Shown: piece by piece, positions 46,243-63,111 of the stretch
Layout: each line of letters starts with the position of its first letter
Numbering within the stretch: the stretch's first letter is position 1
NCBI GenBank assembly: GCA_002269645.1
Contig: NIVC01001293.1
Span: 255,592 to 319,591, forward strand
Reading direction: 5' to 3'
Source of the DNA: Macrostomum lignano
Lineage: Eukaryota
Length of the DNA stretch: 64,000 nucleotides
Notes under the pieces: model-generated
What the model was told of the DNA's origin: nothing
What the model saw: only the letters and a program-made list of their open reading frames with translations
The model's database searches: none
Made by a program: the position numbers and the translations under genes

Positions 46243-47432
46243 AGTAGAATGCATGAGGGGGCTTCTGGGACAAAATTTTTCACCTCCTCCATAATCCCAT
46301 TAAATCCATCCACATTATCCCTGACAGAATCAGAAAAAAGGGGGTCGCACTCACTCACAAAACGTCCTCCATAATCCCATTAAATCCATCCATATTATCC
46401 CCGACAGAATCAGAAAAAAGAGGGGCCGCACTTGCTCCGAAAACTTCGATTATAATCCACCTAATATCCATCCATATTATCCCCATCACATTGCAATGCT
46501 TGCAACTATTTATCTAAGGGAAAAATGTAAAACTACCCTCTAGGGCACCAGCTACAGAGCCAGCTACAAATGTTCCTCAGCCGAACAAATGTTCCTCAAC
46601 CGAACAAATGTTCCTCAGCCGAACATTTGTTCCTCAGCCGAACATTTGTTCCTCAGCCGAACATTTGTTCCTCAGCCGAACAAATGTTCCTCAGCCGAAC
46701 ATTTGTTCCTCAGCCGAACAAATGTTCCTCAGCCGAACATTTGTTCCTCAGCCGAACAAATGTTCCGCCGCCGAACAAATGTTCCTCAGCTGAACAAATG
46801 TTCCGCCGCCGAACAAATGTTCCGCCACCGAACATGTACAGAGCAAATATCTCTCCCCCCCATGCAAAAGCTTCATGTGGATCATGCCCTCACTAACTCA
46901 GAGTACGCAGGCCCCGTATACAGAGAGAACCTCTCTTCCTATGCACAAGCTTCTCCTCTCCGCGTACATTTATTTCTACATAGCAAGTTCTCTCTCTTTC
47001 CACTTCTCTAAGTACAGTCAATCCCGCGACACGTTTAAGCTACGTAAGGAAGAAAGCTTATTTATACAACCACTTGCAGAGCTACTCGGTTAAAAATGTA
47101 TTATCCCTGACACAATCAGAAAAAAAGAGTGGGTCACACTTACCCTTTGAAAAAAATAAATTCTCAATAAAAATGCTTCCAGTTGTCTGTCCAGGTTCTT
47201 ATTACAAAGCGCACGAGCCTAATTACAAGAGTAGGTACCAATGCAAACTAGAATGCAGCGAGTACATGAGAAAATATTGGCCCGGCATTGAAATCAATGT
47301 CCCTAATATTAATCAAGCACTTAAATCTCACTGGTTTGAAAAACATGGAGTAGTCATTAACGATTTTGACAGCTACTATAACTTTGCTGAAGTTATAAGG
47401 CAGTTGTAGTAGTCAACTACAAGGTTGTACCT
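46243..47432 (+). repeat. Left terminal inverted repeat (1190 bp)
   Basis: Reverse complement of 62036-63111. Contains about 80-bp subterminal repeats (46291, 46371, 46452), fourteen 19-bp units and a small ORF. Confidence 0.95.
47173..47409 (+). CDS. Small ORF (78 aa) inside left TIR, unknown function
   Basis: MLPVVCPGSYYKAHEPNYKSRYQCKLECSEYMRKYWPG...; the ATG has the TAAAA-ATG context typical of the element's genes; identical copy in the right TIR. Confidence 0.5.
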   Translation: MLPVVCPGSYYKAHEPNYKSRYQCKLECSEYMRKYWPGIEINVPNINQALKSHWFEKHGVVINDFDSYYNFAEVIRQL

Positions 47433-47470
47433 GGCGGCTTATATCCTAATTTAACAAGTCTGAAGACGAC

Positions 47471-48328
47471 TCACATTCTCTCAATAATAATTGTTAACAT
47501 AAACTCTTCCCCGTTAAAATCGACACCAACTCCATCCTCTGTTTCAAACTGCAGAACGATTTCATGTATCTCCCTATTACTCAGAATCACTCTTTTCACA
47601 GGGTTTGGCTTTTGCACAAGCATTTTGCCACCAGCAACAGAGTTTGAAATGTTAAAAAGTATGTTGGTTCGTTTGCCTTTGAATATCCAATCATGGCTCA
47701 GATTGCTACGAATTAATATATTCAAACCTTTGACAATGTCAGCGATATTTGGCGCCAAGTACATACCGGATATTAGCCGGGACACAGCAACAGTGCCAGG
47801 CGCCTGCAGCGGGCTTTGGTCTGTGGCGCCACCATAAACTCTCTTTTCAAATCCCAACTCGCGATACCAAGTGCCATCTTTAAACTCTACCTCTGCGTCC
47901 TTATGAACTTGCAAGATAACTCTCATGACAGTTAGATCATAAGTTAATCTAACAGGGAACAGTTTATTTTCTGGTTTGCTTTCATCCGGTATCTCAAAAT
48001 GCTTTCGTTTAGTGAAGACGTTCTCCAAGAAGTAATTATAAGTATCCACGCTCTGTGTGCTGACAGGAAATATCACAACCTCTGTTGTAGTACGCTTCCA
48101 TTTGTAATAAAACTTGTTATTTTCCGCTGTCACATTGGGAACATTTGACCACCCAGTGAAATCATTGAGATAGACGTGGTAATTCGCCTCGGGATCCAAA
48201 CGAAGTGGTTGCTCCAATTTTTGAATGAAGATTCCGTTTGACTCAGTAATGCGACCCGCTACAGTGATTGGAATGCTCTCCTTAGAGTGTGAAACAATGT
48301 TGTTCAGTCTTTTGGCTATGGCTTCCAT
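47471..48328 (-). CDS. Minor capsid protein (penton, single jelly-roll), 285 aa
   Basis: Adjacent to the MCP, typical size. PLRLD..ANYHVYL N-terminal motif; C-terminal IHEIVLQFETEDGVGVDFNGEEFMLTIII beta strands typical of Polinton pentons. Confidence 0.75.
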   Translation of the reverse strand: MEAIAKRLNNIVSHSKESIPITVAGRITESNGIFIQKLEQPLRLDPEANYHVYLNDFTGWSNVPNVTAENNKFYYKWKRTTTEVVIFPVSTQSVDTYNYFLENVFTKRKHFEIPDESKPENKLFPVRLTYDLTVMRVILQVHKDAEVEFKDGTWYRELGFEKRVYGGATDQSPLQAPGTVAVSRLISGMYLAPNIADIVKGLNILIRSNLSHDWIFKGKRTNILFNISNSVAGGKMLVQKPNPVKRVILSNREIHEIVLQFETEDGVGVDFNGEEFMLTIIIERM

Positions 48329-48350
48329 TTTTTTATTGAAAAAAAATTAT

Positions 48351-61726: not shown

Positions 61727-61810
61727 TTTGTAGTAGAAGTTGCTGGCGCGGCGAGGTTAGGCAAAGCAGAGCGAGGCGGAGATGGTGGGGCGAGGGGTGG
61801 TGTGAATCGG

Positions 61811-61826
61811 CTGTATATATACCATT
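61811..61826 (-). promoter_or_regulatory. Candidate TATA box for the 274-aa ORF
   Basis: Minus strand CCAATGGTATATATAC about 90 bp upstream of the ATG, followed by a GC-rich leader. Confidence 0.45.
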
Positions 61827-62035
61827 GGTGTGGGCTCGGGAATCCACGGATTCTCTTTTTGTTCTAGAATATTCTAGAATTCGAATTCTAGAAGGGGAAC
61901 CTGTAGATTTTCTATTTATAGGTATGATTTTCTATTTATGGTTGATTGGGGTTGCCAAAGCGGAAAGAGATTGGAAAGCATGTGTGGAACGCATGGCATG
62001 GGTTTTATTTTTAGAACTTACGTCTACACTCTACA

Positions 62036-63111
62036 AGGTACAACCTTGTAGTTGGCTACTACAACTGCCTTATAACTTCAGCAAAGTTATAGTAGCTGTC
62101 AAAATCGTTAATGACTACTCCATGTTTTTCAAACCAGTGAGATTTAAGTGCTTGATTAATATTAGGGACATTGATTTCAATGCCGGGCCAATATTTTCTC
62201 ATGTACTCGCTGCATTCTAGTTTGCATTGGTACCTACTCTTGTAATTAGGCTCGTGCGCTTTGTAATAAGAACCTGGACAGACAACTGGAAGCATTTTTA
62301 TTGAGAATTTATTTTTTTCAAAGGGTAAGTGTGACCCACTCTTTTTTTCTGATTGTGTCAGGGATAATACATTTTTAACCGAGTAGCTCTGCAAGTGGTT
62401 GTATAAATAAGCTTTCTTCCTTACGTAGCTTAAACGTGTCGCGGGATTGACTGTACTTAGAGAAGTGGAAAGAGAGAGAACTTGCTATGTAGAAATAAAT
62501 GTACGCGGAGAGGAGAAGCTTGTGCATAGGAAGAGAGGTTCTCTCTGTATACGGGGCCTGCGTACTCTGAGTTAGTGAGGGCATGATCCACATGAAGCTT
62601 TTGCATGGGGGGGAGAGATATTTGCTCTGTACATGTTCGGTGGCGGAACATTTGTTCGGCGGCGGAACATTTGTTCAGCTGAGGAACATTTGTTCGGCGG
62701 CGGAACATTTGTTCGGCTGAGGAACATTTGTTCGGCTGAGGAACATTTGTTCGGTTGAGGAACATTTGTTCGGCTGAGGAACATTTGTAGCTGGCTCTGT
62801 AGCTGGTGCCCTAGAGGGTAGTTTTACATTTTTCCCTTAGATAAATAGTTGCAAGCATTGCAATGTGATGGGGATAATATGGATGGATATTAGGTGGATT
62901 ATAATCGAAGTTTTCGGAGCAAGTGCGGCCCCTCTTTTTTCTGATTCTGTCGGGATAATATGGATGGATTTAATGGGATTATGGAGGACGTTTTGTGAGC
63001 GAGTGCGACCCCCTTTTTTTCTGATTCTGTCAGGGATAATATGGATGGATTTAGATGGATTATGGAGGAGGTGAAAAATTTTGTCCCAGAAGCCCCCTCA
63101 TGCATTCTACT
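62036..63111 (-). repeat. Right terminal inverted repeat (1076 bp)
   Basis: Matches the left TIR but has eight rather than fourteen 19-bp units (114 bp shorter). Confidence 0.95.
62059..62295 (-). CDS. Second copy of the 78-aa TIR ORF
   Basis: Identical translation to 47173-47409. Confidence 0.5.
   Translation of the reverse strand: MLPVVCPGSYYKAHEPNYKSRYQCKLECSEYMRKYWPGIEINVPNINQALKSHWFEKHGVVINDFDSYYNFAEVIRQL

What the first reader, a model, noticed from the sequence alone, without database searches (positions are those of the whole stretch)
46243..63111. Nearly intact endogenous adintovirus/Polinton with a full virion, entry and replication kit
Seen: both termini, a 6-bp TSD, near-identical kb-scale TIRs and about 14 ORFs with only three lesions. 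Established: Polintons encode pPolB, RVE integrase, ATPase, protease, MCP and mCP, and are regarded as integrated viruses. Inference: a recent insertion whose family may still make virions in this host. It also carries PLA2, pX-like, GasderminX-like and fibre-like genes, so it is a virus-grade element and possibly an undescribed lineage.
Basis: partly seen in the sequence, partly recalled or inferred. Interest (0 to 1): 0.8.

Follow-up and report, generated by a model that had tools for sequence, protein, structure and literature searches.

The report
Divergent endogenous Polinton virus, polymerase broken
A 17-kb integrated DNA virus of a well-known kind (Polinton/adintovirus) sits almost whole in an animal genome; its capsid genes belong to an unnamed, divergent branch, but this copy's polymerase gene is broken.

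Summary
46243-63111 is a 16,869-bp Polinton/Maverick: both ends read AGTAGAATG, TIRs are 1,190/1,076 bp (1,069 of 1,075 aligned bases match), and there are about 14 genes. The 6-bp target duplication is imperfect (5 of 6). MCP (double jelly roll), A32 ATPase, adenain protease, DD35E integrase, PLA2 and pX are supported, with catalytic motifs present; the minor capsid gene is inferred. 'GasderminX-like' and 'fibre-like' are not supported: the candidates are a weakly SLATT-like membrane protein and a coiled coil. Two of the three lesions are frame changes inside pPolB, so this copy as assembled cannot replicate itself; virion production rests on unseen sister copies. The kind of element, its accessory-gene types and indirect evidence for animal adintovirus particles are all published. 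What is new is the lineage: pPolB is at most 49% identical to the 120 best long relatives, and MCP and the presumed mCP have close relatives only among unnamed short contigs (MCP 66-76%, then 40-44%, then about 25%). Side features: palindromic 19-nt arrays in the TIRs and a rare HTH-like gene. New member of a known kind; modest interest.

The parts
46237..46242 (.). Left target-site duplication GTGGTC
   Evidence: 5 of 6 match to the right copy, chance 0.6%
46243..47432 (+). Left TIR, 1,190 bp, 5'-AGTAGA end
46285..46484 (.). 80-bp subterminal repeat, 2.5 copies (mirrored at 62871-63069); 5 of the 6 TIR mismatches lie at 46298-46353
46566..46834 (.). 19-nt array, 14.2 units, each with a 12-bp quasi-palindrome; 5 of 13 cores have the central two bases inverted
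   Evidence: folds at z = -11 against 200 shuffles
47173..47409 (+). 78-codon ORF inside the TIR (identical copy 62059-62295, minus strand); AAAATG start; gene status uncertain
   Evidence: no family above cut-off
47471..48328 (-). Probable minor capsid protein (penton), 285 aa
   Evidence: 12 unnamed relatives at 53-63%; lies next to MCP; predicted self-association 0.53 against best control 0.02; no Pfam or PDB sequence match
48351..49646 (-). Major capsid protein, double jelly roll, 431 aa, uninterrupted
   Evidence: PF21738 E 1.1e-8; the top 14 structural matches are all viral DJR capsid or scaffold proteins, best Z 13.1, rmsd 6.4, 337 aligned (model pLDDT 55)
49677..50909 (+). Gln/Pro-repeat protein, interrupted by an in-frame stop at 50436-50438; function not assigned
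   Evidence: no family above cut-off
50926..51297 (+). 123-aa probable virion core or membrane-active precursor with two Gly-x-Gly sites followed by a Lys/Ala-rich segment
   Evidence: sites; role is inference, resemblance to adintovirus 'Cupiennin' is recalled, not tested
51493..52293 (+). A32/FtsK-type packaging ATPase, 266 aa
   Evidence: Pox_A32 E 7.5e-7; Walker A, Walker B and RGRH present
52311..53120 (+).
   Evidence: only generic coiled-coil hits below cut-off; repeat
53211..53930 (+). 239-aa protein with a central hydrophobic segment; weakly SLATT-like
   Evidence: SLATT_1 E 0.0097, below cut-off; unnamed Atlas clusters of eukaryotes and viruses at 0.93-0.94; no gasdermin hit
53935..54336 (-). 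Adenain-type maturation protease, 133 aa, His51/Asp69/Cys106
   Evidence: Peptidase_C5 E 1.6e-4, above cut-off; motifs
54389..58250 (-). Protein-primed PolB (N-terminal region, vOTU, EndoVII-type zinc ribbon, exonuclease, palm), broken by two frame changes near 56.1 and 55.8 kb
58392..58856 (-). pX (adenovirus mu-like) domain protein, 154 aa
   Evidence: Adeno_PX E 4.9e-7, above cut-off
58874..59869 (-). RVE integrase, 331 aa, Asp73/Asp132/Glu167; no chromodomain hit
   Evidence: rve E 1.1e-8; motifs
59900..60394 (+). Parvovirus-type phospholipase A2, 164 aa, calcium loop and His-Asp dyad present
   Evidence: PF08398 E 3.4e-13; motifs; weak AAV VP1 matches
60604..60900 (.). Non-coding stretch with 79-bp and 67-bp direct duplications between two convergent genes
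60902..61726 (-). 274-aa all-helical protein of a small unnamed family; coiled coil plus probable helix-turn-helix
   Evidence: 11 relatives at 25-33%; model pLDDT 79; 7 of 50 structural rows are ParB/KorB/SopB/VirB DNA-binding domains over residues 131-227, Z 4.0-4.8, weak
62036..63111 (-). Right TIR, 1,076 bp, with an 8.2-unit 19-nt array at 62634-62788
63112..63117 (.). Right target-site duplication GTGGTT

Best explanation
A recently integrated provirus of a Polinton/Maverick (adintovirus; class Polintoviricetes), most likely Alpha type, from a capsid lineage without named members. How the family works (from established knowledge of Polintons, not shown here): pPolB primes on its own terminal-protein domain at the AG ends and copies the linear genome by strand displacement; the vOTU domain frees the terminal protein; the ATPase packs DNA into an MCP/penton capsid; the adenain protease matures Gly-x-Gly precursors (pX, core protein); PLA2 and the hydrophobic peptides help cross membranes; the RVE integrase inserts the genome, leaving a 6-bp duplication. 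Shown here: the anatomy, the motifs, the breaks. Inferred: this copy has lost its own polymerase, keeps intact ends, capsid, ATPase, protease and integrase frames, and could be mobilised only in trans by a sister copy, unless the two frame changes are assembly errors.
For: Ends, TIRs and TSD; length 16,869 bp against 16,862 +/- 1,678 bp for intact vertebrate Mavericks (PMC8097293). Core genes by Pfam and DJR fold. Catalytic residues present in ATPase, protease, integrase and PLA2 and in pPolB: Cys271 matches Cys in all 105 relatives counted at that position, His381 in 113 of 114, exonuclease Asp/Glu in 115 of 116, 116 of 116, 108 of 109 and 109 of 109. 12 of 14 gene starts share AAAATG. Flanks carry animal gene families: DEG/ENaC, M13 peptidase, rhodopsin-type GPCR, alpha-kinase. 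Alpha type: the five pPolB hits named to an organism are soft coral, dragonfly (Ladona), sponge, stony coral and mussel, and Ladona, Mytilus and corals are listed in the Alpha panel of PMC8502044 Fig. S2; Spodoptera Mavericks, also in that panel, show the same weak PolB2 plus EndoVII profile (PMC5803895) as 4 of 12 and 11 of 12 relatives scanned (12 of 120); PLA2 is called characteristic of Alpha virion modules. Penton: self-association score 0.53, best of 3 controls 0.02, runs agree in at least 84% of contacts, pLDDT at least 75; the mark was reached by 21 of 30 solved pairs and 0 of 23 single chains (eukaryotes 17 of 29); three copies is outside the calibration and a pass may be from memory of solved pentons.
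Against: The TSD has a mismatch, which fits less well with a very fresh insertion. Neither pPolB piece hits PF03175, although PMC8502044 defines Alpha as the pfam03175 type, so Alpha versus Beta is not settled. PLA2 and pX are separate genes here, not the fused PLA2X. The MCP model is middling (pLDDT 55) and gave no close adintovirus hexon in BFVD (best rows 8-12% identity). No reads, transcripts or sister copies were available.
Confidence: 0.88

Rival explanations
1. The copy is fully intact in the animal and the two pPolB frame changes are long-read assembly errors; it is an autonomous provirus able to excise, replicate and make particles.
For: Only three breaks in more than 13 kb of coding sequence (total 13,149 bp), two of them small indels; TIRs 99.4% identical over aligned bases.
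Against: The zones hold only 3-4-base runs, not long homopolymers; the third lesion is a stop codon and the TSD has a substitution, both more like real mutation; a 721-codon host ORF nearby is uninterrupted, so indel errors are not dense here.
Confidence: 0.2
2. The family now spreads only as an intracellular transposon; the capsid module is a young relic not yet eroded.
For: No direct evidence of particles; PMC8097293 states that Maverick particles had not been observed.
Against: MCP, presumed mCP, ATPase and protease frames are uninterrupted and of full length against relatives; MCP relatives at 40-76% and mCP relatives at 53-63% keep full-length frames, which implies long selection on the capsid; Spodoptera adintovirus DNA co-purified with nuclease-treated particles (PMC8502044 Discussion).
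Confidence: 0.2
3. It is a mosaic: a replication module of one adintovirus class joined to a virion module of the other (Beta-type pPolB with Alpha-type capsid and PLA2).
For: No PF03175 hit in either pPolB piece and none in 8 of 12 relatives scanned; module swapping is common (PMC8502044; 10.64898/2026.10.13.758929 abstract).
Against: Named relatives come from hosts of the Alpha panel; Alpha-panel Spodoptera polymerases score equally weakly; the C-terminal ORF gave no phage match, whereas Beta polymerases are said to give moderate phage hits.
Confidence: 0.15

Closest known systems
Alphadintovirus (Eupolintoviridae, Amphintovirales, Polintoviricetes; taxonomy), e.g. Mayetiola, Ladona, Mytilus and coral adintoviruses of PMC8502044
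   Same: Size, ITRs, vOTU-bearing pPolB, RVE integrase, FtsK/A32 ATPase, adenain, hexon, penton, PLA2 and pX; SLATT and fibre-like accessories are drawn on their maps.
   Different: PLA2 and pX are separate genes flanking the integrase; no chromodomain hit on the integrase; MCP only 23-25% identical to the three most distant hits, on a long branch from them; rare HTH-like accessory gene; no sequence comparison with the type members was possible.
Polinton/Maverick DNA transposons of animals (PMC8097293; 10.1101/2023.08.22.554363)
   Same: 13-25 kb, TIRs of 100-1,500 bp, 5-8-bp TSD, AG ends, core gene set.
   Different: Ends read AGTAGA rather than the doubled AGT that is commonest in vertebrates; TIR at the long end of the range and holding an ORF; gene order differs from the vertebrate two-module plan; pPolB broken.
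Spodoptera frugiperda Mavericks 1 and 2 (PMC5803895)
   Same: pPolB with EndoVII-like domain and weak PolB2 score, parvovirus-type PLA2, A32 ATPase, adenovirus-type protease.
   Different: Their integrases carry a chromodomain; no sequence comparison was made.
Betadintovirus (Terrapene type)
   Same: Shares the core gene set; a pX-bearing protein and a possible Cupiennin-like protein are present.
   Different: Hallmark GasderminX was not detected; PLA2, an Alpha hallmark, is present.

Membership tests
Polinton/Maverick | 13-25 kb element with 100-1,500-bp TIRs and AG...CT ends | tested here: met
   16,869 bp, TIRs 1,190/1,076 bp, AGTAGA ends; ranges
Polinton/Maverick | 5-8-bp (usually 6-bp) target-site duplication | tested here: met
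   6 bp with one mismatch, chance 0.6%
Polinton/Maverick | Protein-primed PolB with Exo I-III and Pol A-C motifs | tested here: met
   4,334 of 7,678 candidates related, best 120 at 41-47%; Exo I, Exo II and Pol A-C motifs found, Exo III not checked; gene broken in this copy
Polinton/Maverick | RVE integrase with DDE triad | tested here: met
Polinton/Maverick | Packaging ATPase and adenain-type protease | tested here: met
Polinton/Maverick | Double jelly-roll major capsid protein | tested here: met
   PF21738; structural matches
Polinton/Maverick | Single jelly-roll minor capsid protein | tested here: inconclusive
   no named match; position, size, conservation and predicted self-association fit; the fold itself was not compared
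Adintovirus / Eupolintoviridae | vOTU domain in pPolB with catalytic Cys and His | tested here: met
   Cys271 and His381 conserved across relatives; naming this region vOTU rests on PMC11071308 passages and recalled motifs, not on a fold
Adintovirus / Eupolintoviridae | Animal host | tested here: met
   animal gene families in the flanks; species not established
Alphadintovirus | pPolB clusters with the Mayetiola reference and bidnaviruses | not testable with these tools
   reference sequences not available (supplement cut before File S2); indirect evidence favours Alpha
Alphadintovirus | PLA2X gene: PLA2 with C-terminal pX | tested here: inconclusive
   PLA2 and pX both present but in separate ORFs; no pX hit in the PLA2 ORF
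Betadintovirus | GasderminX and Cupiennin accessory genes | tested here: inconclusive
   no gasdermin hit in Pfam or PDB; the original labels came from HHpred, which is more sensitive than the searches run here
Active (virion-forming) adintovirus | Free linear genomes or nuclease-resistant particles | not testable with these tools
   needs reads or material

The most novel reading that the evidence does not exclude
A separate, unnamed genus- or family-level lineage of animal Polintoviricetes, defined by its own capsid clade (MCP 66-76% within, 40-44% to a sister group, about 25% beyond), still active in a poorly sampled invertebrate host, in which the element's own ParB-like helix-turn-helix protein binds the palindromic 19-nt arrays of the TIRs as an iteron-style switch for replication, latency or packaging. 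The inverted core centres in the expanded left array would be a footprint of hairpin template switching during single-stranded replication.
Probability: 0.2. Interest if true: 0.62.

Novelty: new member of a known kind. Interest (0 to 1): 0.36.

Why it matters
Whether animal Polintons make infectious particles is still supported mostly indirectly. A young family with clean capsid genes is one more system in which that can be tested, and the divergent capsid clade widens the sampled range of Polintoviricetes. If the HTH protein and the TIR palindromes are a cognate pair, it would be a rare handle on how an animal Polinton is regulated. But elements of this completeness are already known in numbers (134 intact vertebrate Mavericks in PMC8097293; 266 nematode Polintons in 10.1101/2023.08.22.554363), and this copy is not the best candidate because its polymerase is broken.

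Tried and rejected
GasderminX: no gasdermin family in Pfam for 19 ORFs, none in PDB for the 239-aa or the pX ORF; absence at this sensitivity does not exclude an HHpred-level likeness. Fibre: only generic coiled-coil hits. I first took the EndoVII-type zinc ribbon as a sign of Beta class and dropped that after one search showed it in Alpha-panel elements. The AAAATG at the start of the 3' pPolB ORF suggested a natural split gene; rejected because a roughly 96-residue conserved stretch lies in a third frame between the two ORFs. Sequence and profile searches of PDB gave nothing significant for pPolB, MCP, mCP or the 274-aa family. BFVD gave no match with E below 0.001 for the 274-aa model; the Atlas gave only weak unnamed look-alikes. 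No Rfam match in 44-64 kb. No MCP relative in bacterial/archaeal genome contigs: 95 pattern matches, none confirmed; no pPolB match in 50,697 phage records. Cluster membership and source names of the closest MCP relatives could not be obtained, so their hosts are unknown. Viral and metagenome contig collections stayed unchecked, so gene order in relatives and free-ended genomes were not examined. The host species was not established: a macrostomid flatworm is my guess from the look of the flanks (recalled, untested). Literature searches on that guess: Macrostomum + Polinton, 1 paper, on Tc1 elements by its listing, 1 paper, which reports Polinton-type insertions in Rhabditophora, none of the 25 listed of 2,343 holds the word Polinton. 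These searches do not cover Repbase or Dfam.
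Full report
Observation. The element spans 46243-63111 (16,869 bp). Both ends read AGTAGAATGCATGAGGGGGC inward. The left TIR is 46243-47432 and the right 62036-63111; they align with 1,069 matches, 6 mismatches, one 1-bp gap on the left and 115 gap columns on the right, nearly all from six extra units of a 19-nt array on the left. The flanks are GTGGTC and GTGGTT, a 6-bp duplication with one mismatch; random flank pairs do as well 0.6% of the time. No other copy lies in the window. The surrounding DNA carries DEG/ENaC, M13 peptidase, rhodopsin-type GPCR, alpha-kinase and LicD genes, a GIY-YIG retroelement piece and a LINE, so the host is an animal; the species was not established.

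Genes. Pfam names six ORFs above cut-off: MCP (48351-49646, PF21738), A32 ATPase (51493-52293), adenain protease (53935-54336), pX (58392-58856), RVE integrase (58874-59869) and parvovirus-type PLA2 (ORF scanned from 59690; probable start 59900). Walker A/B and RGRH in the ATPase, His51/Asp69/Cys106 in the protease, Asp73/Asp132/Glu167 in the integrase and the calcium loop plus His-Asp dyad in PLA2 are present (motif patterns are recalled). The MCP model is middling (pLDDT 55), but its 14 best structural matches are all viral double jelly-roll capsid or scaffold proteins (best Z 13.1, rmsd 6.4, 337 aligned). 47471-48328 is the probable penton: it lies beside MCP, has 12 unnamed relatives among 577 candidates at 53-63%, one of them from an ENA contig of the same length (3,702 nt) as one MCP relative (same contig is inferred), and three copies are predicted to associate through residues 18-25 and 213-220 (score 0.53, best of 3 controls 0.02; 21 of 30 solved pairs and 0 of 23 single chains reach the mark, 17 of 29 for eukaryotes; runs agree in at least 84% of contacts, pLDDT at least 75; three copies lies outside the calibration and the pass may be from memory). 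It has no Pfam or PDB match. 12 of 14 gene starts share AAAATG.

Lesions. All 120 long pPolB relatives fetched align to the window in three successive frames, so pPolB has two frame changes, near 56.1 and 55.8 kb, with a conserved stretch of about 96 residues in the middle frame. The catalytic residues are otherwise in place: the Cys and His of the presumed vOTU match in 105 of 105 and 113 of 114 relatives counted, the exonuclease acids in 108-116 of 109-116, and Pol A-C motifs are in the 3' ORF. The third lesion is an in-frame stop at 50436-50438 in a Gln/Pro repeat; that the two halves are one gene is inferred. So 'three lesions' is right, but two disable the replicase. Assembly error cannot be excluded; the zones hold only 3-4-base runs.

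Labels not supported. No ORF hits a gasdermin or fibre family. The 239-aa protein has a central hydrophobic segment and a sub-threshold SLATT hit (E 0.0097) and resembles unnamed clusters of eukaryotes and viruses; SLATT genes are drawn on published adintovirus maps and counted among polisuvirus genes. The 269-aa protein is a coiled coil. GasderminX was defined by HHpred and usually carries a pX domain, so the 154-aa pX protein could be its counterpart; that was not testable.

Lineage. MCP found 14 relatives among 3,767 candidates: seven at 66-76%, four at 40-44%, three at 23-25%. None has an informative name and the eleven close ones lie on contigs under 9 kb. In a tree of these 15 the eleven and the window MCP form one group on a long, fully supported branch from the three distant hits. 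The 3' pPolB ORF found 4,334 relatives among 7,678 candidates of 850-2,425 residues; the best 120 are 41-47% identical by BLAST, and in a tree of 121 the window protein has the second-longest end branch (0.94 against a median of 0.07; at most 49% identity, while the others share a median 60%). Caveat: that search was limited to long proteins, so close relatives on short contigs would be missed. BFVD gave no close adintovirus hexon (8-12% identity in the top rows), with a weak model. The class is most likely Alpha: named pPolB hits come from coral, sponge, Ladona and Mytilus, hosts largely in the Alpha panel of PMC8502044; Alpha-panel Spodoptera Mavericks show the same weak PolB2 plus EndoVII profile as the 12 of 120 relatives I scanned (PF03175 in 4, EndoVII in 11); PLA2 marks Alpha virion modules. 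Against: neither pPolB piece hits PF03175, and no reference sequences could be compared.

Side features. Each 19-nt TIR unit holds a 12-bp quasi-palindrome; the left array folds far better than shuffles (z -11), 5 of its 13 cores have the central two bases inverted while all 7 on the right do not, and the exact core pattern occurs nowhere else in the window. Next to the right TIR is a 274-aa gene of a small family (11 relatives among 1.84 billion representatives, 25-33%). Its model (pLDDT 79) is helical; 7 of the 50 structural rows are ParB-family DNA-binding domains over residues 131-227, but only at Z 4.0-4.8, a level the tool calls commonplace, and most other rows match the N-terminal helices. 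That this protein binds the arrays is a hypothesis only.

Mechanism. By established knowledge of Polintons, pPolB primes at the ends through a fused terminal protein released by vOTU (PMC11071308), the ATPase fills an MCP/penton shell, adenain matures the core proteins, PLA2 and pX-type peptides aid entry, and the integrase makes the TSD. Shown here are the parts and their motifs. Inferred: the insertion is young (0.6% TIR mismatch, three breaks in over 13 kb of coding DNA), but this copy depends on a sister copy for replication. Nothing here shows expression or particles.

Comparison with print. Intact Mavericks of this size are common: 134 in 17 vertebrates, mean 16,862 bp, TIRs 46-1,447 bp (PMC8097293); 266 in nematodes. 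PLA2, pX, fibre, SLATT, Cupiennin and GasderminX are described accessories, and Spodoptera adintovirus DNA co-purified with nuclease-treated particles (PMC8502044). Coral polintoviruses express capsid genes (PMC11131425). Polinton-type insertions are reported in flatworm assemblies (10.1101/2025.04.19.649669). What I saw: PMC8502044 sections 3.1, 3.2, part of 3.3, Discussion, passages, and the first part of the supplement, which was cut before File S2 (sequences) and Table S1, both of which bear on the Alpha/Beta call; 10.1101/2023.08.22.554363 abstract, two of three parts of Results, passages; 10.64898/2026.10.13.758929 abstract and the first part of section 10; 10.1101/2025.04.19.649669 passages and section 10; passages only of PMC11071308, PMC11131425, PMC5803895, PMC4061559, PMC8097293 and 10.1101/2025.02.07.637071. 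Repbase and Dfam were not searched, so 'undescribed' means only no named close relative.

Verdict. A real, well-preserved but polymerase-defective endogenous Polinton/adintovirus, a new member of a known kind, on a divergent capsid branch. Interest 0.36.

Noticed in passing
window 46566-46834 and 62634-62788: 19-nt TIR arrays with a 12-bp quasi-palindrome per unit; the left array has six extra units and 5 of 13 cores with inverted centres, the right none of 7. May record hairpin template switching followed by slippage.
   Followed up: partly
window 47173-47409 (+) and 62059-62295 (-): Identical 78-codon ORF inside both TIRs with the element's AAAATG start; no family found; no homolog search was left to test it.
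   Followed up: partly
window 60902-61726 (-): 274-aa gene of a small unnamed family (11 relatives), helical, weak ParB/KorB-type HTH likeness.
   Followed up: yes
window 46242 and 63112: The inverted repeat extends one base further (C/G); read that way the flanks give a perfect 4-bp duplication instead of a 5-of-6 one. The AG-end reading fits Polinton rules better.
   Followed up: partly
window 60604-60900: Nested 79-bp and 67-bp direct duplications and 18-bp tandem repeats between the convergent PLA2 and 274-aa genes.
   Followed up: no
window 52674-52833: 84-bp in-frame tandem duplication (97%) in the coiled-coil gene, a length change typical of stalk proteins.
   Followed up: no
window 30805-32970 (-): Host M13 (neprilysin-type) peptidase in one 721-codon open frame, apparently intronless.
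   Followed up: partly
window 35965-38390 (-): Host DEG/ENaC channel exons.
   Followed up: partly
window 41010-43209 (+): Non-LTR retroelement remnant with reverse transcriptase and RNase H in different frames, 3 kb left of the Polinton.
   Followed up: partly
window 29434-30279 (-): GIY-YIG endonuclease piece, Penelope-like by recall.
   Followed up: partly
window 14533-19048: 4.5-kb minisatellite of about 225 units of 19 nt, unrelated in sequence to the TIR array; many other simple arrays in the flank.
   Followed up: no
window 2-619, 19630-20781, 26854-27657: Alpha-kinase exon, LicD-family exon and rhodopsin-type GPCR of the host.
   Followed up: partly
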